48,502 nucleotides of DNA from Reclinomonas americana ATCC 50394 (GCA_048213135.1 PS015240.1:1-48502); one strand, 5' to 3'; shown: positions 4,805 through 37,081, numbered from the stretch's first letter. Numbers and translations: made by a program. The notes: generated from the sequence alone by a model not told the origin.

Positions 4805-7224
4805 ATGTCGATTGGAGAGGAGGAGGAGAGCTTTCGGAGAGAGCAGCTGGAGGAGCACGGGTTGGGCAGAGGTTTGTGAGATTCGGCGCTTTGTGTGTCC
4901 TCTCTTCTTTTTTTCTCATTGTGTTGTTTTATTTTTTGCAGATGCCGCTCTTCTTCTCTTTGATGAGCGACGGAGCAGCGATGCGCCAGTGATGCGCGTG
5001 TTTTCACCAAGTGTTGCGTTTTTCTTCACTCACTCTCTCTCTCTCTCACACACACACACAGACGCACAAGTTGTCAGTGATTCGCTCAATCTCTCACTGA
5101 CTGACTCTCTCTTCTCTCCTCCTCCTTTCCACTCACCTTTTGCTGTTTACTTCCCCCTCCCTCACGCTCTCCCTGCCTCAATCACTCTGCTCTTTACTTG
5201 CCATCTCACTCTCTCTCTCACTCGCCCTCTTCCCCCTTCCTTCTCCGTTCCTGCTCCACCCTTTCCCCTCCTTCACTCATTGCACTCACACCTGCACTCT
5301 CTCTCCCTTCTCCCCGTTCTCCCTCCCCTTCCCTTCTCCCTCCTTCTCCCTCTCCTCACAAACTCACAAACTCACTCCGTCCCTTGCTCTTCTCTCTCCC
5401 CTTCGCACCCTTCTCCCTCCCTCCCCTTCCCTTCTCCATCCCTTCTCCCTCCTTCTCCCTCTCCTCACAAACTCACAAACTCACTCCGTCCCTTGCTCTT
5501 CTCTCTCCCCTTCGCACCCTTCTCCCTCCCTCCCCTTCCCTTCTCCATCCCTTCTCCCTCCTTCTCCCTCTCCTCACAAACTCACAAACTCACAAACTCA
5601 CTCCGTCCCTTCCCCTTCTCTCTCCCCTTCGCACCCTTCTCCCTCCCCTTCCCTTCTCCATCCCTTCCCTCTCCCTCTAACCCACAGGAGCTCCGCTCAT
5701 ACCGACTGGCCGCTGCGGAGCGCTTGGCGCCACCGCGCGTCTCCGTGCAAGACATGTTGCGGAGAATGAGTGTGCCGACGCGGTTGACGCACCTGGCCAC
5801 CGGTGTTGCCACGTTGCGTTGCCTGCTGATGCTGCCTCGTTCTCTTCCTCTTTCACCTTCATTCTCTTCCCCTTCGTCTTCTTCTTCGTTCATCGTCTTT
5901 CTCGTCTTCTTCTTCTTCTACTTCTCTCAATCCTCGTTCCTTGTCTTTCTTTTCTCCTCCCCCTCCGTCTTCTTGTTGTTCTTGGTTCTTGCTGTTGTTT
6001 GTTGTTCTTGTTCTTCTTCTCCTCCTCCCTCCTCCTCCTCCTCCTCCTCCTCCTTGCCCTCATCCCCCCTCCCCCCTTTCTCCCCCTTCCCCCTTCTCCT
6101 GCCCCCCTTCCCCCCTTCCCCTTCCCTCCCTCACCCTCCTCCCCCCACCCAGCATCGACGACCTCCTGGGCGGCGGCATTGCCGTGGGCGAGGTCACCGA
6201 GATTGTAGGTCCCACCGCCAGCGGAAAGACGCAGGTATTTTTTAAAGGAACCTCAACTTTCCCTTTCCCTGATCTCTCTCTCTCTCTCTCTCTCTCTCTC
6301 ATGGCTCACTCCCAGCTGATGCACCACCTCACCGCCACCACCCTCCTCCTCCCGCTGCGTCCCACCGTCGTCTACGTCGACACCTCCAACTCGTTCTCCC
6401 CGGACCGCCTGCTGGCGTTCCTCCAAACTCTCGCCGCACCCGAGGTCGCCGACAATGAGGAGTTTCTGCGCGACGCCATGTCGCGGACTCGCTGCGTGCG
6501 ACTGTACTCGCTGGTCGAGCTCACGCGGCGACTGGCCTCGTTTGTGCATCAGTGGCCCTCGCAGCAGCAGCAGGGAGCAGTTGAGTAGGAGTGCAAAAGT
6601 CCGTGTGTGGCGATTCACAAGCTCAATGCCTCGCCCTGACAGTGCTACCCGCTGCTGATTGTCGACTCGCCCGGTGCCTGCCTGGCAGTGGAGATTGGTG
6701 GCGAGAAGCTCGCGGGCCATCAACAAATGGTGAACATTACGCGCTCCGTGAAGCAGCTGGCGGTGGAGCGGGGAGTGGCCGTGTGTCTGGTGAACCACAC
6801 CGTCGGAAGCAATAGCGTGATGGATGAGTCGGTGGCGGCGACCGACGAAGGTGCGTGTGTGTACATAACCGCTCGTGGTTACAGGAGTGGCCTCACACTC
6901 AGATCGACAGTGATTGTCAAGGCTGCGTTGGGCGACTCGTGGGCCGCCGGCTCGCACACACAGTTGGTGTTGTTTCACGGCGAGGGTGTTCGTCGCACGG
7001 GCGGCGGTGGCGGTGGCGGTGGTGGTGGTCATACGCACCGTCGCGCCACCATTGCTCGCAGCTCGGTGGAGCCCCCACCACAGGCAGGTGGCTCGCAACC
7101 GTGCTGCGTGTCATTTTCCATTGCCGACGACGCCTTGCTGTCGGTGTCTGCCGAGGCCGAGGCGACAGGCAGTGGTGCAGTGCATGCGGTCGCGCACCGC
7201 CAGGAAGCAATGATGGCAACGTAG
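4805..7224 (+). CDS. RAD51D: RAD51 paralog, most similar to RAD51D
   Basis: Exons ~4805-4871, ~4942-4997, 5688-5812, 6153-6234, 6316-6579, 6643-6850, 6911-7224. Motifs: LATGVATIDDLLGGGIAVGEVTEIVGPTASGKTQ (Walker A), VVYVDTSNSFSPDRL, LLIVDS (Walker B), AVCLVNH, KAALGDSW. The first two exons are less certain. Confidence 0.82.
5335..5675. repeat. Intronic pyrimidine-rich ~109-bp tandem repeat (about 3 copies)
   Basis: tccttctccctctcctcacaaactcacaaactcac recurs at about 5341, 5450 and 5559. Confidence 0.75.
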
Positions 7225-7907: not shown

Positions 7908-8993
7908 CTACAGTCCAAGGCCACCGTCAGAGAAGGACCGATAGGCGACAACCTCAGCCTCCTCCACCAAGAAGCACCGCAGCACGATCTCCACCAGGCA
8001 TCGCGGGTCACCCTCTTCGTCGCCCTCACACTGCATCTCCTGCACTGCGCGCATGGCCGAGCGCGCACAGCCGAGCTCCAGGCGAGCGAGGCCGCACGGC
8101 GTCGACCACACTCTCACCGTCTTGTCCGCACTCCCGCTCACGACATGCTGACTGCAGGGAGTGACGGCAACACTACGCACCCACCCACTGTGTCCCGTCA
8201 GCCGCCGCACCTCCTTTCCACTCGCCAACGACCACACTCGCACTGTGTGGTCGTAACTCCCACTCACTGCGTGCTGACCATCGGCAGTGACAACGACAGC
8301 GTAAACCAAAGACGCGTGTCCATCCATTCGTCGCACCTCCTTGCCACTCGCCAGCAACCACACTCGCACTGTCGTGTCATCGCCCCCGCTCACCACGTGC
8401 AGACCGTCGCAAGTGATGGCGACACAAAACACCACACAACAATATGCATTCCACAGTCGCACTTCTTCCCCAGTCGCAAGAGACCACACTCGCACAGTAG
8501 TATCATCACCCCCGCTCACCACGTGCAGACCATCGGGAGTGACGGCCACAGACATCACCCTTCCCGCGTGTCCCTCCATCCGTTTCACTTGCTCTCCACT
8601 TGCCACAGACCACACTCGCACGCTCTTGTCCTTGCTCCCGCTAACAATGTGCTGCCCGTCGGGAGTGACGGCAACAGAGAGCACGTCTGCAGTATGTCCC
8701 TCCAACTGATACACTTGCTCACCACTCGCCAGTGACCACACTCGCACAGTGCTATCCGCACTTCCGTTCACAATGTGTCGCCCGTCGGGAGTGATGGCGA
8801 GAGACGTCACCCAGTTGGTCTGTCCCTCCAGTCGTTGCGCTTTCTCTCCACTGGCAAGTGGCCACACACGGATTGTCTCGTCAAAGCCGCCACTCACAAC
8901 GTGCTGCCCGTCGGGAGTGATGGCGACAGACCACAGCTTGTCAAGGTGGCCACGCAGGCACTTGTGTGGGAGAGACGGGGGAGGTGAGGACAT
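7908..8993 (-). CDS. WD40 array gene A1: 7-blade WD40 + conserved C-terminal tail
   Basis: Intronless ORF MSSPPPSLPHKCLRGH, 7 GH..V.SVAVTPDG.HVVSG..D.TVRVW repeats, tail STPCGLARLEL...RCLVEIVLRCFLVEE...DGGLGL*. Start chosen by alignment to paralogues. Confidence 0.9.
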   Translation of the reverse strand: MSSPPPSLPHKCLRGHLDKLWSVAITPDGQHVVSGGFDETIRVWPLASGEKAQRLEGQTNWVTSLAITPDGRHIVNGSADSTVRVWSLASGEQVYQLEGHTADVLSVAVTPDGQHIVSGSKDKSVRVWSVASGEQVKRMEGHAGRVMSVAVTPDGLHVVSGGDDTTVRVWSLATGEEVRLWNAYCCVVFCVAITCDGLHVVSGGDDTTVRVWLLASGKEVRRMDGHASLVYAVVVTADGQHAVSGSYDHTVRVWSLASGKEVRRLTGHSGWVRSVAVTPCSQHVVSGSADKTVRVWSTPCGLARLELGCARSAMRAVQEMQCEGDEEGDPRCLVEIVLRCFLVEEAEVVAYRSFSDGGLGL

Positions 8994-9268: not shown

Positions 9269-10348
9269 TCACAGCCCGAGCCCCCCGGCAGAGAATGACC
9301 GATGGACGACAACCTCCGCCTCCTCCACCAAGAAGCACCGCAGCACGATCTCCGCCAGGCATCGAGAATCATCCTCTTCGTCGCCCTCCCCCTGCATTTC
9401 TTGCACGGCACACAACGCCGAACGTACCGCATCGAGCTCTTGCCGAGCCAGGCCGCACGGCGTCAACCACACACGTATCGTCTTGTCCGTACCCCCGCTC
9501 ACGATATGCTGACCGCAGGGAGTGACGGCGACAGACATCACCCAGTGGGTGTGTCTCTCCAATCGTCGCACCTCCTCGCCACTCGTTAACGCCCACACTC
9601 GCACTGTTTGGTCATAACTCCCACTCACCACGTGTTGGCCATTGGGAGTGACGGCGACAGAGGTCACCTTGTCCATGTGCCCCACCAGTCGTCGCACCTC
9701 CTCCTCACTTGCCATGCACCACTCTCGTACAGTGTTGTCCCCACTCCCACTCACAACGAACTGACCGTCGGGTGTGACGGCGACACTGTACACCACACTG
9801 CGATGACCACTCCACCGTCGCACCTCCTCGCCACTCGCCAGCGACCACAGGCGCACTGTGTTATCCCCACTCCCACTCACAAGGTGCTGCCCGTCGGGAG
9901 TGACGGCGACTGCCGACACGGAGCCAATGTGCCCCTCCATTCGTCGCGTCTCTTCACCACTCGCCAGTGACCACACTCGCACTCTCCCGTCTGTATACCC
10001 GCAGATAACACCATCGTGGGTGACGGCAACAGAGAGCACCCAGCTCGCGTGTCCCTCCAACCGTCGCACTTCTGCTCCACTCGCCATTGACCACACTCGC
10101 ACAGTGTTGTCTCCACCGGCACTCACAATGTGCTGACCATCGGGAGTGATGGCGATACTCCTAACCCAGCGTGTGTGCCCCTCCAGCCGACGCACCTCCT
10201 TGCCAGTCACCAGTGACCACACTTGCACTGTCACGTCATTACTCGCAGAAACAATGTGCTGACCATCTGGGGAGGTGGCGAGTGCGGTCACACATTTGGA
10301 GTGCCCGCGCAGGCACTTGTGTGGGAGAGATGAAGGAGTCGAGGCCAT
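9269..10348 (-). CDS. WD40 array gene A2
   Basis: Intronless MASTPSSLPHKCLRGH, 7 WD40 repeats, same tail. Confidence 0.9.
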   Translation of the reverse strand: MASTPSSLPHKCLRGHSKCVTALATSPDGQHIVSASNDVTVQVWSLVTGKEVRRLEGHTRWVRSIAITPDGQHIVSAGGDNTVRVWSMASGAEVRRLEGHASWVLSVAVTHDGVICGYTDGRVRVWSLASGEETRRMEGHIGSVSAVAVTPDGQHLVSGSGDNTVRLWSLASGEEVRRWSGHRSVVYSVAVTPDGQFVVSGSGDNTVREWCMASEEEVRRLVGHMDKVTSVAVTPNGQHVVSGSYDQTVRVWALTSGEEVRRLERHTHWVMSVAVTPCGQHIVSGGTDKTIRVWLTPCGLARQELDAVRSALCAVQEMQGEGDEEDDSRCLAEIVLRCFLVEEAEVVVHRSFSAGGLGL

Positions 10349-10609
10349 GGTGCGTGACTGAGAGCAGAGAGATAAATTGATGCACTGTGTGCGAGTCACG
10401 ATGTGGAATGAGTTGTCCTTCAAACGAAGGACTTACTTCTCAACAAGGACGTCGCTCGTCAACGTTAACTGTATTATTACAACCAAGAGAGACAGAGCCT
10501 GGCAGAGGCGCGGATGCGGCATCAGAAAGCAACGTAGAGGCAAATTTACGACATGAGAGAGAGAGAGAGAGACGGACAGCAAGCACAACCACCTCCTTCT
10601 CTTGGGACA

Positions 10610-11701
10610 TCACAGTCGGAGACTGCCGTCTGCGAAGCATCTGTGCACAATGCTCTCTGCATCCTCGACGATGAAACACCGCAACACAATCTCCACCAAG
10701 CAGCGCCGATCCACTTCTTCTTCGCCTTCTCCCTCACGTTGCATCTCCTGCACAGCGCGCATCGCTGAACGTGCCGCGTCGAGCTCCTGTCGAGCGAAAC
10801 CGCACGGCGTCGACCACACTCGCACTGTGCCATCGTCATTTCCACTCACGACATGCTGACCGTCGGGAGTGAAGGCGACAGCGTGCACGTAACTGGCGTG
10901 CCCCTGCAGTCGTTGCACTTCACTGCCTGTGGCCAGCGACCACACTCGCACCGTCCGGTCCCAGCTCCCGCTGACGACATGCTGACCATCGGGGGTCACG
11001 GCGACTACTGACACCGGATAGGTGTGACCCTCCATCCGTCTCACTTCGTTCCCGCTCGCCAGCGACCACACGCGCACGGTCATATCATTGCTGCCACTGA
11101 CTACGTGCTGGCTATCGGGAGTGACGACGACTGCAGACACCGAGTCCGTATGCCCCTCCATCCGTCTCACCTCCTCCCCGCTCGCCAGTGACCACACATG
11201 TACAATCTTGTCACGACTCCCACTCACCACGTGCTGACCATCGAGAGTGACGGCGACAGACCACACCACACTGATGTGCCCCTCCAAGCGTCGCACCTCC
11301 TCGCCACTCGCCACTGACCACACACGGACTGTGTAGTCATCACTTGCACTCACCACGTGATGTCCATCGGGGGTGACGGCGACAGACAACACCGTACTGA
11401 TGTGCCCCTCCAAGCGTCGCACCTCCTCGCCACTCGCCAGTGACCACACTCGCACAGTGAAGTCCTGGCTCCCACTGACGATATGTTGACCATCGAGAGT
11501 CACCGCGACGGAGAACACGATGCCGGTGTGTCCCACCAGCCGACGCACCTCCTTGCCACTTGTAAGTGACCACACACGCACAGTCTTGTCTCTTCCACCG
11601 CTCACTACATGCTGACCATCGCGGTTGATGGTGATGGAACGCACTTGTAGAGTATGTCCCTCCAAGCACATGCTCAGGAGGAAGCGAGGGGCTGAGGACA
11701 T
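10610..11701 (-). CDS. WD40 array gene A3
   Basis: Intronless MSSAPRFLLSMCLEGH, 7 WD40 repeats, same tail. Confidence 0.9.
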   Translation of the reverse strand: MSSAPRFLLSMCLEGHTLQVRSITINRDGQHVVSGGRDKTVRVWSLTSGKEVRRLVGHTGIVFSVAVTLDGQHIVSGSQDFTVRVWSLASGEEVRRLEGHISTVLSVAVTPDGHHVVSASDDYTVRVWSVASGEEVRRLEGHISVVWSVAVTLDGQHVVSGSRDKIVHVWSLASGEEVRRMEGHTDSVSAVVVTPDSQHVVSGSNDMTVRVWSLASGNEVRRMEGHTYPVSVVAVTPDGQHVVSGSWDRTVRVWSLATGSEVQRLQGHASYVHAVAFTPDGQHVVSGNDDGTVRVWSTPCGFARQELDAARSAMRAVQEMQREGEGEEEVDRRCLVEIVLRCFIVEDAESIVHRCFADGSLRL

Positions 11702-11904
11702 GATGTGTGTGTGTGTGCCGACGGGCAGAGTGCGTGTGTGTGTGATTTGTTGGTGAATGAATGTGTCCTCCCCTTTGCGGACGGGGGGACGTCACGTCGT
11801 CGCCATTGTTGCATGCTTGCTGCTCGACGATTTACTATACAGACAAGGCGGACGAGCACTTGATGACGCGGACACACCGGAAACCCTCTCTCCCTCTCCA
11901 CTGG

Positions 11905-12984
11905 TCACAGTCGAAGACTCTCGTCGGTGAGGCAACGATGGATGACAACCTCCGCCTCCTCCACGATGAAACACCGCAACACAATCTCTGGCAAGCACCG
12001 TGAATCCACCTCCTCTTCCTCCTCACCCTCCCTGTGCTGCATCTCCTGCACCGCCCGCATCGCTGAACGTGCCGCATCCAGTTCCGGCCGAGCCAGGCCG
12101 TACGGCGTTGACCACACTCGCACAGAGCCATCCCCACCTCCACTCACCACGTGCTGTCCATCCGGCGCGACGGCCACACAGCGCACCGAGAAACCCTCCA
12201 ATCTTTGCACTTCTCGGCCTGTCTCCACGGACCATACTCGCATCGTTTGGTCCTTGCTCCCGCTCACAACGTGGCGACCATCCGGAGTGACGGCGACGGA
12301 CCATACCCGCTCAGTGTGTCCCTCCAGACGCCACACTTGTTCGCCAGTCACCAGTGACCACACGCACACTGTCTTGTCCGCACTTCCACCCACTACATGC
12401 CGACCGTCGGGCGTCATGGCGAGACTCCCTGCGCCTCCCTTCATCCGTCGCACCTCTTCTCCGCTCGCCAGCGACCACACACGCACAGTGCTGTCGTTGC
12501 TGCCACTCACCACATGCTGTCCGTCGCGTGTAATGGCCACAGCGAGCACTAATCTCGTGTGTCCCTTCAGCACTCTGACTTGTTCTCCACTCGCCAGAGA
12601 CCACACTCGAATGGTAGTGTCCCAGCTGCCACTTACTGCATGGCGACCGTCGGGAGTGACGGCGACAGACTCAAGCCAGTCAGTGTGACCCTTCAATCGG
12701 CGCACTTCTTTACCGCTCGCCAGTGACCAGACTCGCACAGTCCTGTCCAGACCCCCACTGACAGCGTACTCGCTGTCGGGAGAAACAGCGACAGAGCACA
12801 CATAGTTGGTGTGTCCCTCCAATCGCCGCACTTCCTTCCCACTCGCCAGCGACCACACTCGCACAGTGAAGTCATCACTTCCACTGACGATGTGCTGGCC
12901 ATCGGGAGTGACGGCGACGGACTTGACTTTGCTGGAATGTCCATCCAAGCACTTGCATATGAGAAGAGGAGGAGAGGAAGACAT
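11905..12984 (-). CDS. WD40 array gene A4
   Basis: Intronless MSSSPPLLICKCLDGH, 7 WD40 repeats, tail variant RCLPEIVLRCFIV. Confidence 0.9.
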   Translation of the reverse strand: MSSSPPLLICKCLDGHSSKVKSVAVTPDGQHIVSGSDDFTVRVWSLASGKEVRRLEGHTNYVCSVAVSPDSEYAVSGGLDRTVRVWSLASGKEVRRLKGHTDWLESVAVTPDGRHAVSGSWDTTIRVWSLASGEQVRVLKGHTRLVLAVAITRDGQHVVSGSNDSTVRVWSLASGEEVRRMKGGAGSLAMTPDGRHVVGGSADKTVCVWSLVTGEQVWRLEGHTERVWSVAVTPDGRHVVSGSKDQTMRVWSVETGREVQRLEGFSVRCVAVAPDGQHVVSGGGDGSVRVWSTPYGLARPELDAARSAMRAVQEMQHREGEEEEEVDSRCLPEIVLRCFIVEEAEVVIHRCLTDESLRL

Positions 12985-13248
12985 GCGTTCGGGAGTGGAT
13001 TTCGTTGATTTTTCCGTGTCCTCATTGGAGGGGACGAAACGTGATCGGTCGTCGATGCTCGGTGTTGCTGACCCTGCATGATAGTTTATTATGTGGTGCG
13101 ATAGACAGAGACATAGGTTGCCGAAGAAGCACAACATGAACAATTTGGCGACGAAAGAGTCAAGAAACACAACAGAGACAATACAGAAAGCGAGAGCGAA
13201 GAGGGCGAAGATAGAGAGCAGGGCCTTCTCACTCCTTTCCAACACAAG

Positions 13249-14316
13249 TCACAGTCGAAGGCTGTCGTCCGTGAAGCACCGATGAACGATAACCTCCGCC
13301 TCCTCGACCAAGAAGCACCGCAGAGCAAGCTCTGGAAGGCAGCGCGAATCCACTTCCTCTTCCTCCCCCTGCATCTCCTGCACCGCCCGCATCGCTGAAC
13401 GTGCCGCATCAAGTTCCGGCCGAGCGAGACCACACGGCGTCGACCACACTCGCACAGAGCCGTCCTCACCTCCACTCACCACGTGCTGCCCATCGGCAGT
13501 GACAGCCACACAGCGCACCGAGAAACCCTCCAACCTTTGCACTTCTCGGCCTGTCTCCACGGACCATACTCGCATCGTTTGGTCTCTGCTCCCGCTCACA
13601 ATGTGGCGACCATCCGGAGTGACAGCGACGGACCATACCCGCCCAGTGTGTCCCTCCAGACGCCACACTTGTTCGCCAGTCACCAGTGACCACACGCACA
13701 CTGTCTTGTCCGCACTTCCACCCACTACATGCCGACCGTCGGGCGTGATGGCGAGACTCCCTGCGCGTCCCTTCATCCGTCGCACTTCTTCTCCGCTCGC
13801 CAGCGACCATACACGCACAGTGCCGTCACCGCCGGCACTCACCACATGCTGTCCGTCGGGTGTGATGGCCACAGCGAGCACAAATGTCGTGTGCCCCTTC
13901 ATCACTCTCACCTCTTCACCACTCGCCAGCGACCACACTCGAATGGTGGTGTCCCAACTGCCACTCACTACGTGGCGACCATCGGGAGTGACAGCAACAG
14001 CGTGCACAACTTGAGTGTGACCCTCCAATCGTCGATCTTCTCCGCCACTCGCCAGTGACCAGACTCTCACAGTCCTATCAAGACTCCCACTGACAGCGTA
14101 CTCGCTGTCGGTAGTAACGGCGACAGAGCTCACATAGTTGGTGTGACCCTCCAACCGCCGCACTTCCTTCCCAATCGCCAGCGACCACACTCGCACAGTG
14201 AAGTCCTCACTTCCACTGACGATGTGCTGGCCATCGGGAGTGACGGCGACGGACTTGACTTTGCTGGAATGTGCACCCAAGCACTTGCATATGAGAAGAG
14301 GAGGAGAGATAGACAT
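13249..14316 (-). CDS. WD40 array gene A5 (recent duplicate of A4)
   Basis: Intronless MSISPPLLICKCLGAH. Shares the shortened blades (G.AGSLA, GFSVRCV) with A4. Confidence 0.9.
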   Translation of the reverse strand: MSISPPLLICKCLGAHSSKVKSVAVTPDGQHIVSGSEDFTVRVWSLAIGKEVRRLEGHTNYVSSVAVTTDSEYAVSGSLDRTVRVWSLASGGEDRRLEGHTQVVHAVAVTPDGRHVVSGSWDTTIRVWSLASGEEVRVMKGHTTFVLAVAITPDGQHVVSAGGDGTVRVWSLASGEEVRRMKGRAGSLAITPDGRHVVGGSADKTVCVWSLVTGEQVWRLEGHTGRVWSVAVTPDGRHIVSGSRDQTMRVWSVETGREVQRLEGFSVRCVAVTADGQHVVSGGEDGSVRVWSTPCGLARPELDAARSAMRAVQEMQGEEEEVDSRCLPELALRCFLVEEAEVIVHRCFTDDSLRL

Positions 14317-14559
14317 GCGTTTGAGACTGATTTTTCCATGTCCTCTTTGGAGGGGACGAAACGTGAACGGCCGTCGATGCTCGGTGTAGTTTATTATGTG
14401 GTGCAATACACAGAGACATAGGCTGCTGAGCAGAACAACAATTTGGCGACGTCGTACATGCACATGACGAAGAAACGTCGATAAAGAAACACAAGACAAC
14501 ACAGAAAGGGAGAGAGAGAGAGAGAGCACAGGGCTTTCTCACTCCTTCTCCAACACAAG

Positions 14560-15639
14560 TCACAGTCCCATGCCCCCGTCAGAGACGGACCGATGAACGA
14601 CAACCTCCGCCTCCTCCACCAGGAAGCAGCGAAGGACGATCTCCACCAAGCAACGCGGATCCTCTTCGCCCTCATCCTGCATTTCCTGTGCGGCATGCAT
14701 GGCCGAGCGTGCTGCATCGAGCTCCTGCCGAGCGAGACCGTACAGCGTGGACCAAACTTGCAATGTCTTGTCAAGACAGCCGCTCACAATTTGTTGGCCG
14801 TCAGGAGTGACGGCGACACACTTCACACCTGCAGTGTGCCCCTCCAACCGCCGCACCTCTTCTCCACTCGCCAGCGACCACATACGCACTGTCTTGTCTC
14901 CACTCCCACTCACCACATGGCGGCCGTCGGCTGTGACGGCGACAGACTTCACACCTCCAGTGTGTCCCTCCATTCGACGCACCTCCTCGCCGCTTGCCAT
15001 GCACCACATGCGCACTGTTCCGTCGTCACTGCCACGCACCACGTATTGGGAGTCGGGAGTGACGGCGACAGACAGCACTTTTTCCCGGGCAGTCGCAAAC
15101 AGTCGCACCTCCTTCCCACTCGCCAACGACCACATTCGCACGGTTTCATCCCGACTCCCACTCACTATGTGCTGACCGTCAGGAGCGACGGCAACACACA
15201 GCACCCGGCTCCTGTGTCCCTTCAACAGTCGCACGTGCTTACCAGTCGCCAGCGACCACACTCGCACTGTGCAGTCCTCACCCCCACTGACGGCATGCTG
15301 GCTGTCGGGAATGACGGCCACGGTCCACACTGTACCAATGTGCCCCGCCAAGCGTCGCACCACCGTGCCACTGGCGAGGGACCACACTCGCACAGAAAAG
15401 TCCTCACTCCCACTCACGATGTGCTGGCCATCGGGAGTCACTGCCACAGAGTTCACCCGTCCAGTGTGTCCCTCCAGCCGTTGCACCTCCTGTCCACTCG
15501 CGAGTGACCACACTCGCACAGTGCGGTCACTGCTGCCACTCACAACAAATTGGCCATCGCGAGTGATGGCGACAGAGTGCACCACTGCCGTGTGCCCACG
15601 CAGGTACTTGCAATGGAGGGATGGGGGAGCCGAGGACAT
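14560..15639 (-). CDS. WD40 array gene A6
   Basis: Intronless MSSAPPSLHCKYLRGH, 7 WD40 repeats, same tail. Confidence 0.9.
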   Translation of the reverse strand: MSSAPPSLHCKYLRGHTAVVHSVAITRDGQFVVSGSSDRTVRVWSLASGQEVQRLEGHTGRVNSVAVTPDGQHIVSGSEDFSVRVWSLASGTVVRRLAGHIGTVWTVAVIPDSQHAVSGGEDCTVRVWSLATGKHVRLLKGHRSRVLCVAVAPDGQHIVSGSRDETVRMWSLASGKEVRLFATAREKVLSVAVTPDSQYVVRGSDDGTVRMWCMASGEEVRRMEGHTGGVKSVAVTADGRHVVSGSGDKTVRMWSLASGEEVRRLEGHTAGVKCVAVTPDGQQIVSGCLDKTLQVWSTLYGLARQELDAARSAMHAAQEMQDEGEEDPRCLVEIVLRCFLVEEAEVVVHRSVSDGGMGL

Positions 15640-15726: not shown

Positions 15727-15746
15727 TGTCCTTCACTCAAAGGACA
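15727..15746. promoter_or_regulatory. Representative GTCC-N10-GGAC inverted repeat found upstream of every WD40 array gene
   Basis: TGTCC-ttcactcaaa-GGACA. Equivalents start at 9044, 10414, 11764, 13017, 14339, 16690, 33178, 34601 and 35934 (all N10), and at 31831 (N5). Confidence 0.75.
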
Positions 15747-15963: not shown

Positions 15964-16623
15964 TCACAGTCCCATGCCCCCGTCAGAGACGGATCGATGC
16001 ACCACGACAGCTGCGTCCTCCACCAGGAAGCATCGCAGCACGAACTCCACCAAGCAACGCGGGTCACCCTCTTCGTCGTCCTTCCCCTGCATCCCCTGCA
16101 CCGCGCGCATCGCCGAACCCGCGAGATCAAGCTCCAGGCGAGCGAGGCCGCACGGCGTCGACCACACTCTCACCAACGAGTCGTCACACGCAGTTACGAT
16201 GTGCTGACCATCAGGAGAGACAGCGATACAATTCGTCCCTACGAAGTTCTCGCTCATCCGCCACACCTCTCGTCCGCTCTTCATCGACCAAACTCGTACG
16301 GTGGAGTCGAACATGTAACTCCCACTAATCACATGCTGAGCATCGGGAGTGACGGCGACAGCCAACACTGCATCGGCATGACCCTCCAGCCGTCGCACCA
16401 CGCTTCCACTTGTCAGCGAATGAACAAGCAGGGTGCCATCATGGTCCCCACTCACAACGTGCTGACCATCGAGAGNNNNNNNNNNNNNNNNNNNNNNNNN
16501 NNNNNNNNNNNNNNNNNNNNNNNNNNNNNNNNNNNNNNNNNNNNNNNNNNNNNNNNNNNNNNNNNNNNNNNNNNNNNNNNNNNNNNNNNNNNNNNNNNNN
16601 NNNNNNNNNNNNNAGGAGGACAT
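15964..16623 (-). CDS. WD40 array gene A7 (interrupted by N gap; blade number unknown)
   Basis: MSS start, gap 16476-16613, then about 3 visible WD40 repeats and the conserved tail. Confidence 0.8.
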   Translation of the reverse strand: MSSXXXXXXXXXXXXXXXXXXXXXXXXXXXXXXXXXXXXXXXXXXXXXXXLDGQHVVSGDHDGTLLVHSLTSGSVVRRLEGHADAVLAVAVTPDAQHVISGSYMFDSTVRVWSMKSGREVWRMSENFVGTNCIAVSPDGQHIVTACDDSLVRVWSTPCGLARLELDLAGSAMRAVQGMQGKDDEEGDPRCLVEFVLRCFLVEDAAVVVHRSVSDGGMGL

Positions 16624-16750
16624 TGTGCGAAAGAGAGGCGAGAGAGAGAGCGATGAGAGTGTGAATGCGCTGCGTGCGTGTGCTTGTAATGTCCTTCACA
16701 TGGAGGACACGGCTTGAACTTCCGGGCAACAAAGGGTTTACTCAACTTCA

Positions 16751-30704: not shown

Positions 30705-31802
30705 TTATCCCCCCTCGGGCCTCCATCGACGCACCACCATCTCCGCCTCCACCACCAGACACCGCCGCAACACCACCTCCACCAAACACCTTCCCTCCAC
30801 GAGCTCCCTCACCTCCCCACCCTCCTCCTGCAGCTGCACGGCACGCACGGCGGAGCGCACACCATCCAACTCCCACTGCGCGCACCCGCACGGTGTCGAC
30901 CACACGAGCAGCGGCTCGTCGCTGCAGGCGCACACAATGTGCTGGCCATCGCGAGAGACAGCAAGCGAGGTCAGATACTCGCTGCCGCCACGCAAACATT
31001 GCACGGCGTCGCCAGTCGCCAGCGACCACAGACGCACCGTCAGGTCCACGCTGCCACTGACAATGTAGCGGTCGTCGGGGGTGACGGCCACGGCGAGCAC
31101 CTCGTCCGTGTGGCCCTCCAGCCGTCGCACTTCGCGACCGCTCGCCAGCGACCACACGCGCACCGTGCAATCGTCACTGCCGCTCACCACATGCCGCCCG
31201 TCAGCGGCCACAGCAATCGAGGTCACCGCATTGCTGTGCCCCGTCAATCTTCGCAGCTCGTGACCAGTCGCCAGCGTCCACACACGCACCGTCCCATCAT
31301 CGCTCCCGCTCACCACATGCAGCCCGTCGGTAGTGAAGCAAACAGCGCGCACAGACGCTGTGTGTCCTTCCAGCAACCTCCGTACCCGACAGCTCTCCAC
31401 CATCGACAGCACTCGCACCACGCAGTCGCTGCATCCACTCACCACTGCACGCCCGTCGGGGCTGACTGCGACGCACCACACGCGACTCGCGTGATTTTCC
31501 CACTCGCGCACCATCTCCCCACTCGCCAACGACCACAATCGCACGAGTCCACCGCTGCACGCACTGACCACATGCTCCCCATCAGGCGTGACAGCGACTG
31601 CGTCGACCTCACCGTCGTGTGTCTCCGCCATGCGCAGCAAATGCGCATGCTCATGGTCGTCATGCGTCAGTGATCGCACACGCACCACACCCTCACTGCT
31701 TCCCGTCACCACGTGGCGACTGTCGGCCGTGGTGGCGACACACAGCACTCGCTCACCGCAGCTGCGCATGCACTTGTGGAAGAAGCGAAGAGCTGCGCAC
31801 AT
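30705..31802 (-). CDS. WD40 array gene B0 (most divergent member)
   Basis: Intronless MCAALRFFHKCMRS, 7 WD40 repeats, tail STPCGCAQWELDGVRSAVRAVQ...GRCLVEVVLRRCLVVEAE. Confidence 0.88.
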   Translation of the reverse strand: MCAALRFFHKCMRSCGERVLCVATTADSRHVVTGSSEGVVRVRSLTHDDHEHAHLLRMAETHDGEVDAVAVTPDGEHVVSACSGGLVRLWSLASGEMVREWENHASRVWCVAVSPDGRAVVSGCSDCVVRVLSMVESCRVRRLLEGHTASVRAVCFTTDGLHVVSGSDDGTVRVWTLATGHELRRLTGHSNAVTSIAVAADGRHVVSGSDDCTVRVWSLASGREVRRLEGHTDEVLAVAVTPDDRYIVSGSVDLTVRLWSLATGDAVQCLRGGSEYLTSLAVSRDGQHIVCACSDEPLLVWSTPCGCAQWELDGVRSAVRAVQLQEEGGEVRELVEGRCLVEVVLRRCLVVEAEMVVRRWRPEGG

Positions 31803-31868: not shown

Positions 31869-32957
31869 ATGACTTCTGCGCCTCCCTCCCTCCCATGCTC
31901 ACGCACACTTCGTCACGCCCGCGCTGTATTCACTGTCGCCATCACTCCCGATGGCCGTCACATTGTCAGCGGCAACAAAGACACGACTGTGCGCGTGTGG
32001 TCCATGAAGAGTGGGGAGCAAGTGTTGTGCTTGGGGGGGCATACAGCCACGCCGTGCGCTGTCGCCGTCACTCCTGATGGCCAGCACGTGGTGAGTGGGA
32101 GCTTGGACAAAACACTGCGTGTGTGGTCGCTGGCGAGTGGGGAGGAGGTGCGTCAATTTCAGGATGGGTGCTTGCACGCAGTGTTGTCAGTGGCCATCAC
32201 TCCCGATAGCCAGTACGCGGTGAGTGGAAGCGTCGATGACACATTGCGAGTGTGGTCACTGGTGACTGGGGAGCTTGTGCGAAGCATCACCGGGCACGCT
32301 GGGTGTGTGTGGTCTGTTGCCATCACCCCCGACAGTGAGCATGTTGTGAGTGGGAGTCTGGATAGGACTGTGCGTGTGTGGTCGCTGGTGAGTGGAAAAC
32401 TAGTGCGACGGCTTGAGGGGCACACTGGTTCAGTGTTCTGTGTTGCTGTCACTCCCGACGGGAAGTTTATTGTGAGTTGTTCTCACGACAAGACTGTGCG
32501 TGTTTGGTCGCTGGCAAGTGGAGACGAGGTGCGACGGTTGGAGGGACACACTGCTCTGGTGTGGAGTGTCGCGATCACTCCCGATGGTCAGCACGTTGTC
32601 AGTGGCAGCAGGGACACCACCGTGCGAGTGTGGTCGCTGGTGAGTGGCGAAGAAGTGCGACGAATGGAGCGACACACTTCCGTTGTGCGATCGGTCGTCG
32701 TCGCTCCCGATGGGCAGCACATCGTGAGCGGCGGTGATGACGAGACAGTGCGGGTGTGGGCGACGCCGTGCGGACTCGCTCGACAGGAGCTCGACCTCGC
32801 TCGAAAGGCTATGCAGTCGGTGCAGGAGATGCAGAACGTAGAAGAGGAGGGATTGGATCGGCGCTGTCTGGTGGAGATCGTCCTTCGCTGCTTCCTTGTT
32901 GAGGATGCAGAGGTCATTCTTCATCGGTGCTCTGTCGATGGCATACTGCGGTTGTAG
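31869..32957 (+). CDS. WD40 array gene B1
   Basis: Intronless MTSAPPSLPCSRTLRH, 7 WD40 repeats, tail. Head-to-head with B0. Confidence 0.9.
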   Translation: MTSAPPSLPCSRTLRHARAVFTVAITPDGRHIVSGNKDTTVRVWSMKSGEQVLCLGGHTATPCAVAVTPDGQHVVSGSLDKTLRVWSLASGEEVRQFQDGCLHAVLSVAITPDSQYAVSGSVDDTLRVWSLVTGELVRSITGHAGCVWSVAITPDSEHVVSGSLDRTVRVWSLVSGKLVRRLEGHTGSVFCVAVTPDGKFIVSCSHDKTVRVWSLASGDEVRRLEGHTALVWSVAITPDGQHVVSGSRDTTVRVWSLVSGEEVRRMERHTSVVRSVVVAPDGQHIVSGGDDETVRVWATPCGLARQELDLARKAMQSVQEMQNVEEEGLDRRCLVEIVLRCFLVEDAEVILHRCSVDGILRL

Positions 32958-33027: not shown

Positions 33028-33263
33028 CGTTTTCTGATTCATTGGTTGTTTGTTATCGCGCCTTGACGACCGACAGTTTGTTGTCGCCTCCGCTTCTAGT
33101 GCCTGGTTCTTTGAGTCACCCTAGTGCAGTAAACGCGGCTTGCTGAAGGCAGCGCTAGTGGAAGTCAATCAAATGTTGGTCCTCGCTCCTAAGGACACAT
33201 CGCACACACATCAAATCGCGCAAGCGCACGCACACACCCTCCGTTTCCGTCCCCTTTCCAAAC

Positions 33264-34411
33264 ATGACCTCGTCTCCCCTCTCTCTCCTGTGCATGCGTG
33301 TCTGGGAGCACCGTGCCGCCGTGTCGTCTGTCGCCGTCACCGTTGATGGCCAGTATGTTGTGAGCGGTTGTGTGGACAAGACAGTGCGTGTGTGGTCGCT
33401 GGCGAGTGGAAAAGAGGTGCGACAGTTGAAGGGACACGCCGATTCCGTGTTCTCTGTCGCCGTTACTCCGGATGGTCAGCACATTGTGAGTGGAGCTGAT
33501 GACGGTGACAAAACAGTGCGTGTGTGGTCGACGAAGAGTGGAGAGGAAGTGCGACGATTGGAGGGACACACCGGAGCAGTGATGTCTGTCGCCGTCTCTC
33601 CCGACAGCCAGCGCATTGTGAGCGGAAGCCGTGACAAGACAGTGCGTGTGTGGTCGTTGGCGAGCGGAGAAGAGTTNNNNNNNNNNNNNNNNNNNNNNNN
33701 NNNNNNGCGACGACTGGAGGGTCACACTGAAATGGTGAGGTCTGTTGTCGTTACTCCTGATGGTCAGCACGTTGTGAGTGGAGGCGGTGCCGACAAGTCA
33801 GTGCGTGTGTGGTCACTGGTGAGCGGTGAAGAGGTGCGACGGCTGGAGGGCCACACTGGTTCGGTGATCTGTGCCACTGTCACTCCCGATGGTCAGTTCG
33901 TTGTGAGTGGCGGTTTCGACCTGAGTATGCGCGTGTGGTCACTGGCGAGCGGCGAGGAGGTGCGCCGGTTGGAGGGACACGAGGCAGGNNNNNNNNNNNN
34001 NNNNNNNNAGTACTGTCTGTCGCCCTCACTGCTGATGGTGAGCGCATTGTCAGTGGGGGCGATGACAACACCGTGCGAGTGTGGTCAATGGCGAGCGGCG
34101 AAGAAGTTCGACGGGTGGAAGAGCATGCGTGGGGGGTGTGGTCTGTTGTCATCACTCCCGACGGGCAACACATTGTGAGTGGCAGTGAGGACGAGACAGT
34201 GCGGGTGTGGTCAACGCCGTGCGGCCTTGCTCGACAGGAGCTCGACTGTTGTCGCTCGGCCATGCAGTCGGTGCAGGAGATGCAGCCGGAGGACGAAGAG
34301 GAGGCAGGTGATCCGCGCTGTCTTGTGGAGATTGTCTTGCGCTGCTTTCTGGTCGAGGATGCCGCAGTCATTCTTCATCGGTGCTCTGTCGATGGCAGTC
34401 TGCGATTGTAG
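33264..34411 (+). CDS. WD40 array gene B2 (two N gaps; frame offset at the second gap)
   Basis: MTSSPLSLLCMRVWEH, WD40 repeats, tail ...HRCSVDGSLRL*. The frame change coincides with the N run at about 33989-34008. Confidence 0.85.
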
Positions 34412-34676: not shown

Positions 34677-35777
34677 ATGACCTCATCGCCTCCGTCTCTC
34701 TCGTGCAAGTGCTTCCAGGGACACACTGGCCATGTGCTCTGTGTTACCGTCACTCCCAATAGTCAGCACGTGGTGAGTGGCAGTGCGGACAGCTCTGTGC
34801 GGGTGTGGTCGCTGGCGACTCGGGAGGAGGTGCAGCAGTTCGAGGGACACACTGGCGTCGTGTGGTGTGTCACCGTCACTCCCGACGGTCAGCACATTGT
34901 GAGTGGAGACAGCGACAATATGATCCGAGTGTGGTCGCTGGCGAGTGGTAATGAGGTGCAACAACTGCACGGTCACACTGGTCCGGTGGACTCAGTTGCC
35001 GTCGTTCCCGATGGTCAACACGTCGTGAGTGGGAGTACTGACAGAACCGCGCGCGTGTGGTCATTGGTGAGTGGTGCACAATTGCGGCGATTAGAGGGAC
35101 ACACTGAAGGGGTGTCTTCCGTCGCCATTGCTCCCGATGGGAAACACGTTGTGAGCGGGGGTGATGACAACATTGTGCGTGTGTGGTCATTGGCGACTGG
35201 AGAGGAAGTGCGCCGATTCGAGGGACACACGTTTTGCGCATGTTCTGTCGCATTCACTCCCGATGGTCAGTTCGTGGTGAGTGGTGGCGACCGAACTGTG
35301 CGCGTGTGGTCGCTGGCGAGCGGCGAGGAAGTGCGACGGTTTGAGAGCCACACGGCAGGAGTACTGACTGTCGCCGTCACTCCCGACGGTCAGCACGTTG
35401 TTAGCGGAAGTGGTGACAAAACAGTACGAGTTTGGTCATTGGTGAGTGGCAAGGAGGTGCGACGACTGGTGGAGCACGCATACGAGGTGCGATCTGTTGC
35501 AGTGACTCCCGACGGTCAGCACATTTTGTGTTGTGGCTTCTCCTTTGTCAGCGACTGGCCGATTCGCATATGGTCAACACCGTGCGGCCTCGCTCGACAG
35601 GAGCTCGACCGCGCTCGTGCGGCCATGCAGTCGGTGCAGGAGATGCAGCCGGAGGACGAGGAAGAGGAGGCAGGTGATCCGCGCTGTCTGGTGGAGATCG
35701 TCTTGCGCTGCTTTCTGGTCGAGGATGCCGCAGTCATTCTTCATCGGTGTTTCGCTGATGGCAGTCTGCGACTGTAA
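34677..35777 (+). CDS. WD40 array gene B3
   Basis: Intronless MTSSPPSLSCKCFQGH, 7 WD40 repeats, tail. Confidence 0.9.
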   Translation: MTSSPPSLSCKCFQGHTGHVLCVTVTPNSQHVVSGSADSSVRVWSLATREEVQQFEGHTGVVWCVTVTPDGQHIVSGDSDNMIRVWSLASGNEVQQLHGHTGPVDSVAVVPDGQHVVSGSTDRTARVWSLVSGAQLRRLEGHTEGVSSVAIAPDGKHVVSGGDDNIVRVWSLATGEEVRRFEGHTFCACSVAFTPDGQFVVSGGDRTVRVWSLASGEEVRRFESHTAGVLTVAVTPDGQHVVSGSGDKTVRVWSLVSGKEVRRLVEHAYEVRSVAVTPDGQHILCCGFSFVSDWPIRIWSTPCGLARQELDRARAAMQSVQEMQPEDEEEEAGDPRCLVEIVLRCFLVEDAAVILHRCFADGSLRL

Positions 35778-35995: not shown

Positions 35996-37081
35996 ATGTC
36001 TTCCGCGCATCCCTCCCTCCCATGCACACGCACACTCCGTCACGCCAGTGCCGTCGTCGGTATCGCCGTCACTCCCGACGGCCGTCACGTGGTCAGCACC
36101 AACAAAGACACGACAGTGCGCTTGTGGTCCATGGAGAGTGGGGAGCAAGTGTTGTGCTTGGAGGGACACACGAACACGCCGTTCACTGTCGCCGTCACTC
36201 CCGATGGTCAGCATGCTGTGAGTGGGAGTCTCGATTTCACAATGCGTGTGTGGTCGCTGGCGAGTGGTGAGGAGGTATACGAATTGCAGGATGAGCATTC
36301 GCATGCTGTGTTGTCGGTCGCCATCACTCCCGATGGCCAGTACGTGCTGAGTGGGAGCACAGATGGCGCCATGCACGTGTGGTCACTGGTAACTGGGGAG
36401 CTGACGCGAATCATTACCGGGCACGCTGGGTGGGTGTGGTCTGTTGCCATCACTCCCGATGGTCAACACGTTGTGAGTGGGAGTGCGGATAAAACGGTAC
36501 GTGTGTGGTCGTTGGTGAGTGGCGAGGAAATGCGGCGGCTAAAGAGACACTCTGGTCCGGTGCTCTGCGTTACTGTCACTCCCGACGGACAGCGTGTTGT
36601 GAGTGGCGGTTATGACCACACTGTGCGCGTGTGGTCGCTGGCGAGCGGAGAGGAAGTGCGACGGTTGGAGGGACACACTGCTCCGGTGTGGTGTGTCGCT
36701 GTCACCGCCGATGGTCAGCACGTTGTGAGTGGGAGTCAAGACACCACCGTGCGAGTGTGGTCGCTGGCGAGTGGCGAAGAAGTGCGACGAATGGAAGGCC
36801 ACACTAACGCTGTGCGGTCGGTCGTCGTCGCTCCCGGCGGGCAGCACATCATGAGTGGCAGTGAGGACGAGACTGTGCGGGTGTGGTCGACGCCGTGTGG
36901 AGTCGCTCGACAGGAGCTCGACCTCGCTCGAAAGGCTATGCAGTCGGTGCAGGAGATGCAGCCGGAGGACGAAAAGGAGGAAGGACTGGATCGGCGCTGC
37001 CTGGTGGAGATCGTCCTTCGCTGCTTCCTGGTCGAGGATGCCGCAGTCGTTCTTCATCGGGGTTTCACTGATGGCTTGTAG
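35996..37081 (+). CDS. WD40 array gene B4 (close paralogue of B1)
   Basis: Intronless MSSAHPSLPCTRTLRH, 7 WD40 repeats, tail. Confidence 0.9.
   Translation: MSSAHPSLPCTRTLRHASAVVGIAVTPDGRHVVSTNKDTTVRLWSMESGEQVLCLEGHTNTPFTVAVTPDGQHAVSGSLDFTMRVWSLASGEEVYELQDEHSHAVLSVAITPDGQYVLSGSTDGAMHVWSLVTGELTRIITGHAGWVWSVAITPDGQHVVSGSADKTVRVWSLVSGEEMRRLKRHSGPVLCVTVTPDGQRVVSGGYDHTVRVWSLASGEEVRRLEGHTAPVWCVAVTADGQHVVSGSQDTTVRVWSLASGEEVRRMEGHTNAVRSVVVAPGGQHIMSGSEDETVRVWSTPCGVARQELDLARKAMQSVQEMQPEDEKEEGLDRRCLVEIVLRCFLVEDAAVVLHRGFTDGL

What the first reader, a model, noticed from the sequence alone, without database searches (positions are those of the whole stretch)
7908..8110. Unassigned conserved ~60-aa C-terminal module shared by all 12 WD40 proteins
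Seen: consensus W-STPCGLARQELDxARxAMxxVQEMQ-(acidic linker)-DxRCLVEIVLRCFLVE(E/D)AxV(V/I)(V/L)HR-xxxDGxLxL, retained even in divergent B0. Known: WD40 + C-terminal SOCS box (WSB proteins) and repeat + C-terminal F-box-like PRANC proteins are cullin-RING ligase substrate receptors. The helix-linker-helix layout and the LPEIVL variant in A4 are reminiscent of these, but neither consensus is properly matched. Inference: a constant docking module that couples variable propellers to one shared effector such as Skp1, Elongin BC or DDB1.
Basis: partly seen in the sequence, partly recalled or inferred. Interest (0 to 1): 0.75.

Follow-up and report, generated by a model that had tools for sequence, protein, structure and literature searches.

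The report
Conserved helical tail on WD40 paralogs
Twelve neighbouring genes for WD40 propeller proteins all end in the same strongly conserved two-helix tail of about 65 residues that matches no described protein family and probably serves as a shared attachment handle, though what it attaches to is still unknown.

Summary
All 12 WD40 genes end in a 64-69 aa tail, and no further copy occurs in the window. The tail follows a complete seven-bladed propeller: 28 strands, closed by the N-terminal strand. It is predicted as helix, acidic linker, long hydrophobic helix.

It is the most constrained part of the protein. Median dN/dS is 0.17 for the tail, 0.26 for the propeller framework and about 1.0 for 42 predefined top-face codons, with synonymous sites saturated.

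Among 1.84 billion proteins only three convincing relatives exist. The two full-length ones are propeller+tail proteins 23-27% identical overall, and the third is a fragment.

No tested criterion places the tail in the SOCS-box, F-box, PRANC or DWD families. The F-box tests lack sensitivity.

The constant-handle-on-variable-receptors reading is supported.

Best reading: a new partner-docking box, confidence about 0.4. Rivals are self-association and intramolecular packing.

The parts
7911..8108 (-). tail of gene 1 (CDS 7911-8993, stop codon 7908-7910); this is the copy named in the finding
   Evidence: E 1.2e-36
8109..8993 (-). seven-repeat WD40 propeller of gene 1
9272..9469 (-). tail of gene 2 (CDS 9272-10348)
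9470..10348 (-). WD40 propeller of gene 2
   Evidence: Pfam WD40, 7 stretches, 4.7e-71
10613..10816 (-). tail of gene 3 (CDS 10613-11701)
10817..11701 (-). WD40 propeller of gene 3
   Evidence: The listed best stretches of the PDB matches end at query residue 309 or earlier.
11908..12114 (-). tail of gene 4 (CDS 11908-12984), the LPEIVL variant
12115..12984 (-). WD40 propeller of gene 4
13252..13446 (-). tail of gene 5 (CDS 13252-14316), the LPELAL variant
13447..14316 (-). WD40 propeller of gene 5
14563..14754 (-). tail of gene 6 (CDS 14563-15639)
14755..15639 (-). WD40 propeller of gene 6
15967..16164 (-). tail of gene 7 (CDS 15967-16623, interrupted by the N run at 16476-16613)
16165..16623 (-). 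partial WD40 propeller of gene 7, cut by the assembly gap
30708..30902 (-). tail of gene 8 (CDS 30708-31802), the divergent copy
   Evidence: 44% identical to the first row; E 6.2e-28
30903..31802 (-). WD40 propeller of gene 8
31869..32756 (+). WD40 propeller of gene 9; this is the protein that was modelled
   Evidence: 28 strands, block-mean pLDDT above 90 across most of the propeller. TM-score 0.98, normalised by the target's length, to 5yzv.
32757..32954 (+). tail of gene 9 (CDS 31869-32954)
   Evidence: helices at residues 300-322 and 332-356
33264..34207 (+). WD40 propeller of gene 10, interrupted by N runs at 33677-33706 and 33989-34008
34208..34408 (+). tail of gene 10
34677..35570 (+). 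WD40 propeller of gene 11
35571..35774 (+). tail of gene 11 (CDS 34677-35774)
35996..36883 (+). WD40 propeller of gene 12
36884..37078 (+). tail of gene 12 (CDS 35996-37078)

Best explanation
The tail is a real, separately constrained protein module with three parts:
- an amphipathic helix of about 22 residues that starts directly after the last propeller strand;
- a variable acidic linker;
- a helix of about 25 residues whose first half (CLVEIVLRCFLV) is almost wholly hydrophobic.

It follows a propeller that is already complete. It leaves the last blade after strand c. From general WD40 topology (my recall) that exit lies on the side opposite the hypervariable top face.

I propose that it is a constant docking box. 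Its hydrophobic helix would be buried in one shared partner protein, so that 12 propellers with different binding faces feed into one downstream machine. This is the logic of substrate receptors of cullin-RING ligases, and an adaptor subunit of such a ligase is the most likely class of partner.

Shown: the module exists, it is under strong purifying selection, it sits behind a complete propeller, it is predicted as helices, it is retained in distant propeller relatives, and the propeller top face is variable.

Inferred: that it docks to another protein, that the partner is shared, and what the partner is.
For: 1. Twelve of 12 WD40 genes carry the tail and no other frame in the window does.
2. 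Selection falls into three tiers across 45 pairs of 10 paralogs. Median dN/dS is 0.17 for the tail, 0.26 for the framework and 1.04 for 42 top-face codons chosen in advance from the repeat register. Only 29 of the 45 top-face ratios are finite. Synonymous sites are saturated (tail mean dS 1.28), so conservation is at the protein level and is not recent copying. Median terminal branch length is 0.15 for the tail and 0.43 for the propeller.
3. The variable columns are GH+1 to +3, GH+5 and the x positions of SGSxDx. [quoted passage not shown] That my columns are the same positions is my own comparison.
4. The AlphaFold2 model has 28 strands, that is 7 blades of 4, using N-terminal strand 10-15. 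The tail therefore supplies no strand. Helices are predicted at 300-322 and 332-356, and the tail-alone model agrees with helices at 6-26 and 35-60.
5. Both full-length relatives found among 1.84 billion representatives, P0002 and P0004, are propeller+tail proteins. They are 27% and 23% identical overall but 43% and 37% identical in the tail. The third relative, P0001, is a 116-aa fragment.
6. Tandemly expanded receptor families with purifying selection on the adaptor-binding box and positive selection on the substrate-binding domain are described for nematode F-box genes (PMC8120010, passages read).
Against:
- No adaptor gene lies in the window. Pfam on 218 of the 980 six-frame segments (those of 75 aa or more, at most 20% X, outside the WD40 genes) gave hits only in eight segments: single Rad51, CSN3, LRR and kinase hits, actin in two segments, and a RING-finger segment that matched two RING models.
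- No tested criterion links the tail to the F-box, SOCS box, PRANC or DWD families.
- Tail confidence in the models is low. In the full-length model pLDDT is about 70 for helix 1 and 27-51 for helix 2. The tail-alone model has mean pLDDT 63.9 and pTM 0.35. I had no coordinates or error map, so packing against the propeller cannot be excluded.
- A very hydrophobic helix fits self-association equally well.
Confidence: 0.4

Rival explanations
1. The tail is a self-association module. The helical hairpins of two or more family members would pack into a bundle, giving homo- or hetero-oligomers of propellers with several binding faces.
For: - Helix 1 has a 3-4 spaced seam of small and hydrophobic residues (A8, L12, A15, M19, V22), read from the alignment.
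- Helix 2 is hydrophobic on most of its surface.
- The tail alone is modelled as two long helices, and the best fold matches, weak as they are, are antiparallel helical hairpins.
- WD40 proteins with helical oligomerisation regions, such as coronin and LIS1, are known (recalled, not tested here).
Against: - It was not tested.
- The fold matches have E of 2.7 or worse on a low-confidence model and carry no weight.
- The conserved charged residues E11, R44 and R57, invariant even in the distant relatives, fit a specific contact of any kind.
Confidence: 0.25
2. The tail packs back on its own propeller, on the side or bottom, as a structural clasp or as a lid that regulates access.
For: - Helix 1 starts with no spacer after the last strand (VWSTP), so it is held close to blade 7.
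- The tail occurs only behind propellers, including very divergent ones.
- Helix 1 has a moderate pLDDT of about 70 in the full-length model.
Against: - The propeller is complete without the tail, with 28 strands.
- Helix 2 has pLDDT 27-51 in the full-length model, so no confident intramolecular placement is predicted. The alignment had only 10 rows, and neither coordinates nor an error map were available to me.
- The acidic linker varies in length by up to 7 residues between copies, which is unusual for a rigid clasp.
Confidence: 0.15
3. The tail is a true but very divergent member of the F-box/PRANC or SOCS-box families, sharing ancestry with them and not merely working like them.
For: - The layout matches WD40+SOCS-box proteins and repeat proteins with a C-terminal two-helix F-box (PMC4812663 and PMC9414399, passages read).
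- Four of 15 tails have LPE(I/M)(V/I)LRCF, which resembles the start of an F-box with one residue missing (the F-box pattern is recalled).
- The Cul2-box pattern phiPxxphixxxphi fits the same 4 of 15 tails.
- Pfam also misses the region of GALA3 that I recall as its F-box, so the Pfam negatives are weak.
Against: - Pfam finds no such family for 15 of 15 tails at E<=10.
- The BC box fits 1 of 15 tails, in helix 1. LPphiP fits 0 of 15 and LPxE 0 of 15.
- hhalign gives 0.1% against one PRANC domain and 2.2% against the GALA alignment.
- The PDB gives no sequence hit at E<=10.
- Helix 2 is modelled as one 25-residue helix, not as the short helices of those boxes. Confidence is low.
Confidence: 0.1
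4. The tail has no function of its own and is kept alike by gene conversion among tandem copies.
For: In the plus-strand cluster the tail of gene 11 is closer to those of genes 9 and 12 than their propellers are. Tail dS is 0.39-0.53 against about 1.0 for the propeller, and the tail tree groups 9+11+12 with support 97/98. Some 3' exchange has therefore happened.
Against: - Tail dS is saturated in most of the 45 pairs (mean 1.28) while dN stays at 0.22.
- The tail is retained in relatives only 23-27% identical overall.
- The flanking DNA is not conserved: median identity is 0.43 downstream and 0.44 upstream.
Confidence: 0.03

Closest known systems
WSB1/WSB2 (WD40 repeats followed by a C-terminal SOCS box; Cul5 substrate receptors)
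   Same: The domain order is the same: a WD40 domain followed by a short helical box at the C-terminus. PMC4812663 (passages read) describes the SOCS box as about 40 aa.
   Different: - There is no Pfam SOCS_box match.
- The BC-box consensus fits 1 of 15 tails, in the wrong helix.
- The Cul5-box motif LPphiP fits 0 of 15.
- The tail is longer, at 64-69 aa, and contains an acidic linker.
Ankyrin-repeat proteins with a C-terminal truncated F-box (PRANC) of poxviruses and of Wolbachia phage WO
   Same: A repeat domain carries a short C-terminal box. In poxviruses the box has only two helices yet binds Skp1 (PMC9414399, passages read). That these proteins occur as multigene families is my recall.
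   Different: - There is no Pfam PRANC or F-box match.
- hhalign probability is 0.1% against the one PRANC domain I could fetch.
- LPxE fits 0 of 15 tails.
- The repeat type here is WD40, not ankyrin.
Highly regular WD40 propellers: Nostoc 2YMU, Thermomonospora PkwA 5YZV, and the fungal HET-E/HNWD NLR repeats
   Same: - The propeller's best PDB sequence match is 2ymu_A (3.1e-153).
- Its best fold match is 5yzv (TM-score 0.98 normalised by the target's length).
- Variable residues sit at the top-face loop positions, as in HNWD repeats (PMC2873952).
   Different: Those proteins carry other domains, such as NACHT or a kinase, or carry none. The two best-covering hits checked directly, P0035 and P0039, lack the tail. 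Here the propeller stands alone with exactly seven blades plus the tail.
DCAF-type CUL4-DDB1 receptors (DDB2, CSA) with a helix-loop-helix or H-box beside a WD40 propeller
   Same: A helical segment next to a WD40 propeller serves as the docking element. This description is recalled; for the papers I saw only the search listing.
   Different: The helical element there is N-terminal, whereas here it is C-terminal. The WDxR motif is absent from 10 of 10 full-length proteins.
Coronins (propeller, C-terminal extension, coiled coil)
   Same: The layout is similar: a propeller followed by C-terminal helices that mediate assembly (recalled).
   Different: No coronin family appeared in the rows printed by the Pfam scans of the full-length proteins. 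Only the best 25 of 55-72 families were shown, so this was not specifically tested.

Membership tests
WD40 seven-bladed beta-propeller (N-terminal ~296 aa) | seven WD40 repeats folding into a closed propeller | tested here: met
   - Pfam WD40 gives 7 stretches with E 2.7e-55 to 2.7e-75 in 5 of 5 proteins scanned.
- The AlphaFold2 model has 28 strands and block-mean pLDDT above 90 across most of the propeller.
- Foldseek gives TM-score 0.98, normalised by the target's length, to 5yzv.
SOCS box | match to the family profile (Pfam SOCS_box) | tested here: not met
   None of the 15 in-frame tails (12 from the window, 3 relatives) gives such a hit at E<=10. One extra query was out of frame through my slip and was repeated in frame.
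SOCS box / VHL box | BC box (S,T,P)LXXX(C,S,A)XXXphi (PMC4878042) | tested here: not met
   The pattern fits 1 of 15 tails (TLYGLARQEL in gene 6). That match lies in helix 1, not in the conserved hydrophobic helix.
SOCS box | Cul5 box LPphiP (PMC4812663) | tested here: not met
   0 of 15 tails
VHL box | Cul2 box phiPXXphiXXXphi (PMC4878042) | tested here: inconclusive
   The pattern fits 4 of 15 tails, the LPE variants, and so is not a family-wide feature.
SOCS/VHL box | binds Elongin BC | not testable with these tools
F-box / F-box-like / PRANC | match to the family profiles | tested here: not met
   - Pfam gives none for 15 of 15 tails at E<=10.
- hhalign gives 0.1% against one phage WO PRANC domain and 2.2% against a 7-row GALA3 alignment.
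- Caveat: Pfam does not detect an F-box in that GALA3 region either, so sensitivity is poor and the alignment is unvalidated.
F-box | LPxE start of helix 1 (recalled pattern) | tested here: not met
   LPxE fits 0 of 15 tails. LPE, one residue shorter, fits 4 of 15.
F-box / PRANC | three helices in 40-50 aa, or the first two in the truncated form (PMC9414399) | tested here: inconclusive
   The models give one long helix over the candidate region (residues 332-356, or 35-60 in the tail alone), but with pLDDT 27-66.
F-box / PRANC | binds Skp1 | not testable with these tools
DWD / DCAF receptors of CUL4-DDB1 | WDxR motif at the end of a WD repeat (recalled) | tested here: not met
   The motif is absent from 10 of 10 full-length proteins. 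The repeats contain VWS 2 to 8 times per protein and never VWD.
Any solved fold | sequence or structural match of the tail to a PDB entry | tested here: not met
   The tail profile gives 0 PDB sequences at E<=10. Foldseek with the tail model gives 6 matches, the best at E 2.7 and none at E<=0.001. The model itself is low-confidence.

The most novel reading that the evidence does not exclude
The tail is a previously undescribed adaptor-binding box that defines a new class of E3-ligase (or other effector) substrate receptors. It would mark a lineage-restricted, diversifying repertoire of stand-alone WD40 sensors: an NLR-like recognition system whose constant signalling part is a 65-residue helical handle in place of a nucleotide-binding domain.
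Probability: 0.15. Interest if true: 0.75.

Novelty: new variant of a known kind. Interest (0 to 1): 0.45.

Why it matters
If the tail is a docking box, it names a new way of coupling a diversifying family of propeller receptors to one effector. Its partner would show what these 12 proteins do, whether protein turnover, recognition of foreign molecules or assembly of a complex.

The three tiers of selection make the family a compact natural example of a receptor built from a variable and a constant part: a free-running top face, a constrained framework and a most-constrained tail.

In practical terms, the tail alignment is a ready seed for a new domain family. That family currently has only three convincing relatives among 1.84 billion representative proteins.

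Tried and rejected
- **Kinetoplastid origin.** I first guessed this from the intronless same-strand genes and the CT/GT repeats. I rejected it because the actin-like gene at 37228-38400 (-) has at least three short introns.
- **Zinc site formed by the tail cysteines.** Rejected. C5 is Y in 2 of 12 copies and C37 is absent from P0002. Only C45 is in all 15 rows except the divergent gene 8, which has R at that column.
- **Response-regulator kinship.** The single hit in the prokaryotic genome scan (L001) is a 13-residue match produced by the search pattern itself. It lies at the N-terminus of what looks to me like a response-regulator receiver domain (not scanned). I judged it a chance match.
- **P0003.** This 183-aa tandem-repeat reading frame matches profile positions 34-61 and has four matched stretches. 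hhalign probability is only 26.7%, so I do not count it as a relative.
- **Peroxisomal or prenylation signal at the C-terminus.** The endings are LRL (6 copies), LGL or MGL (4), DGL (1) and EGG (1). They do not fit the recalled PTS1 or CaaX patterns.
- **Membrane anchor.** The hydrophobic run is only about 12 residues and is interrupted by E and R.
- **Atlas look-ups of the tail.** There was no usable hit in either of two calls (18, 63).
- **NCBIfam.** Nothing relevant.
- **Word-indexed protein search with the tail region of gene 9.** It gave 0 hits.
- **Fold search with the tail-alone model.** It gave only generic helical hairpins at E of 2.7 or worse.
- **The listing of cluster members for P0001-P0004.** The database was switched off, so their cluster members stayed unknown. 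The only source label seen is 'lgn', for P0002 and P0004.

Full report
**What is there.** The window has about 58% G+C and holds 12 runs of N totalling 3,498 bases. It carries 12 paralogous WD40 genes without introns, in two clusters. Genes 1-7 lie on the minus strand between 7911 and 16623. Gene 8 lies on the minus strand at 30708-31802. It stands head to head, 66 bases apart, with genes 9-12 on the plus strand between 31869 and 37078.

Each protein has seven WD40 repeats in about 296 residues, followed by a tail of 64-69 residues. A motif scan of all six frames finds the tail 12 times, always at the C-terminus of a WD40 frame. A profile of the tail over 980 six-frame segments finds no thirteenth copy; the next best hit has E = 0.4. 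The quoted span 7908-8110 is the first copy (7911-8108) plus its stop codon and two extra bases.

**It is a selected protein module.** I computed Nei-Gojobori estimates for the 45 pairs of the 10 gap-free genes.

| Region | Mean dN | Mean dS | Median dN/dS |
|---|---|---|---|
| Tail | 0.22 | 1.28 | 0.17 |
| Whole propeller | 0.33 | 1.02 | 0.33 |
| Propeller framework | 0.24 | 0.95 | 0.26 |
| 42 top-face codons | 1.65 | 1.66 | 1.04 (29 of 45 ratios finite) |

- I chose the top-face codons in advance from the repeat register: GH+1 to +3, GH+5, and the residues either side of the Asp in SGSxDx.
- The tail is therefore the most constrained part and the top face the least.
- Synonymous saturation rules out recent homogenisation as the cause.
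- The exception is the plus-strand cluster. There the tail of gene 11 is nearer to those of genes 9 and 12 (dS 0.39-0.53) than their propellers are (about 1.0), and the tail tree groups 9+11+12 with support 97/98.
- Flanking DNA is not conserved: median identity is 0.43-0.44.
[quoted passage not shown] That my variable columns are the same positions is my own comparison.

**Anatomy.**
- An AlphaFold2 model of gene 9 on the 10-row alignment has mean pLDDT 86.6 and 28 strands, that is seven blades of four. The first strand comes from N-terminal residues 10-15. The propeller is therefore closed without the tail.
- The tail is modelled as helix 300-322 (pLDDT about 70), a loop, and helix 332-356 (pLDDT 27-51).
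- The tail alone on its 12-row alignment gives the same two helices, at 6-26 and 35-60, with mean pLDDT 63.9 and pTM 0.35.
- I had no coordinates or error map, so I cannot say whether the helices touch the propeller.
- Helix 1 starts directly after the last strand (VWSTP). The linker is acidic and varies by up to 7 residues between copies.
- The first half of helix 2 (CLVEIVLRCFLV) is almost wholly hydrophobic and its second half is amphipathic.

**Relatives.**
- An exhaustive HMMER search with the tail profile over 1,835,955,588 representatives gave four hits at E<=0.001.
- P0001 is a 116-aa fragment of a close relative (8.8e-27).
- P0002 (394 aa) and P0004 (381 aa) are divergent propellers with the tail at their C-terminus.
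- P0003 is a tandem-repeat frame that I do not accept as a relative: hhalign probability is 26.7%.
- With their tails added to the profile, P0004 and P0002 score 3e-21 and 5.4e-19, and nothing else appears.
- They align end to end with gene 3 at 27% and 23% identity, and both alignments run through the tail up to the conserved R57, nine residues before the C-terminus of gene 3. Their tails are 43% and 37% identical to that of gene 9.
- A search with full-length gene 3 gave 1,426 hits at E<=1e-10 among 8,000 scored candidates. The 120 listed cover 61-95% of the query, and those that carry names are bacterial or fungal WD40 proteins.
- The two with 94-95% coverage lack the tail.
- The listed best stretches of the PDB sequence matches of the full-length protein end at residue 309 or earlier.

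**Comparison with known boxes.**
- Pfam gives nothing relevant for 15 of 15 in-frame tails at E<=10. One query was out of frame through my slip and was repeated.
- NCBIfam, the PDB sequence profile search and two Atlas look-ups are also empty.
- The published consensus patterns (PMC4878042 and PMC4812663, passages read) fit poorly: the BC box in 1 of 15 tails (in helix 1), LPphiP in 0 of 15, and the Cul2 box in 4 of 15.
- The recalled patterns do no better: LPxE fits 0 of 15 and LPE 4 of 15. WDxR is absent from 10 of 10 full-length proteins.
- hhalign of the tail alignment gives 0.1% against the PRANC domain of a Wolbachia phage WO ankyrin protein (Pfam PRANC, 3e-07).
- hhalign gives 2.2% over 7 irrelevant columns against a 7-row alignment of the region of Ralstonia GALA3 where I recall its F-box to be.
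- Pfam does not detect an F-box in that GALA3 region either. The F-box negatives are therefore weak and that alignment is unvalidated.
- Foldseek with the full-length model finds only propellers, aligned over about 290 columns. With the tail model it finds six matches at E of 2.7 or worse.

**Interpretation.**
- Established: a constant, strongly constrained helical module sits behind a complete propeller whose ligand face evolves freely, and the pairing is old.
- Most likely (confidence about 0.4): the hydrophobic helix is buried in a shared partner, as in substrate receptors of cullin-RING ligases.
- Tandem expansion with purifying selection on the adaptor box and positive selection on the substrate domain is described for that class (PMC8120010, passages read). 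C-terminal boxes of comparable size exist there too (PMC9414399 and PMC4812663).
- Membership in those families is not supported, and the partner is unknown.
- Self-association (0.25) and intramolecular packing (0.15) remain open.

**Context.**
- No adaptor gene lies nearby. I scanned 218 of the 980 six-frame segments against Pfam: those of 75 aa or more, with at most 20% X, outside the WD40 genes.
- The hits, spread over eight segments, were a Rad51-like exon, CSN3 repeats, an LRR, actin (two segments), a RING finger (one segment, two RING models) and a kinase fragment.
- The organism has spliceosomal introns. It is not represented in the protein collections searched: no hit or 25 was marked as the window's own.

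**Left unchecked.**
- The closed metagenome and viral contig collections were not searched.
- The cluster members of P0001-P0004 stayed unknown.
- No profile-profile search against full domain libraries could be made.

Noticed in passing
window 10415-10432, 11765-11782, 13018-13035, 14340-14357, 15728-15745, 16691-16708, 33179-33196, 34602-34619, 35935-35952: An 18-base palindrome-like element, GTCC-N10-GGAC, lies shortly upstream of the start codon of 9 of the 12 WD40 genes and nowhere else in the window. There are 9 matches against 1.22 expected, and 0 of 100 shuffles reach 9. It may be a shared promoter or 5'-UTR element. An AATAAAC/GTAAACG-like motif lies further upstream in the spacers.
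   Followed up: partly
window 37228-38400 (-): An actin-like gene has at least three short introns, while all 12 WD40 genes are intronless. The named matches to the propeller in the database are bacterial or fungal WD40 proteins. An origin by gene transfer or retroposition was not examined.
   Followed up: no
window 30708-31802 (-) and 31869-32954 (+): Genes 8 and 9 stand head to head, only 66 bases apart. The spacer holds a GTGTCC...GGACAC element.
   Followed up: no
window 18394-19035 (-): A gene fragment matching the helical repeats of COP9 signalosome subunit 3 (7.8e-28) lies between the two WD40 clusters. CSN regulates cullin-RING ligases, but adjacency alone is not evidence.
   Followed up: no
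window 41840-44848 (-): Exons of what looks like one intron-containing gene lie here: a coiled-coil region, a protein kinase fragment (42338-42859) and a C3HC4 RING finger (41840-42169).
   Followed up: no
window 5830-6585 (+): A short Rad51-family match (8.2e-06, profile positions 14-43) is probably one exon of a split gene.
   Followed up: no
window 34677-35774 versus 31869-32954 and 35996-37078: There are signs of 3'-end exchange. The tail of gene 11 has dS 0.39-0.53 to genes 12 and 9, while the propellers have about 1.0. The tail tree groups 9+11+12 with support 97/98.
   Followed up: partly
P0003 (no window coordinates): A 183-aa tandem-repeat reading frame from the representative library has four stretches matched to the tail profile, the best at positions 34-61 (3.9e-05). 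hhalign probability is 26.7%. It remains unexplained.
   Followed up: partly
L003:31830-32069 (+): Pfam finds no F-box in the N-terminal region of Ralstonia GALA3, which I recall as an F-box effector. This is a caution for all Pfam-based F-box negatives.
   Followed up: no
window 16476-16613, 33677-33706, 33989-34008: Assembly gaps (runs of N) interrupt genes 7 and 10, so their blade number and reading frame cannot be judged.
   Followed up: no
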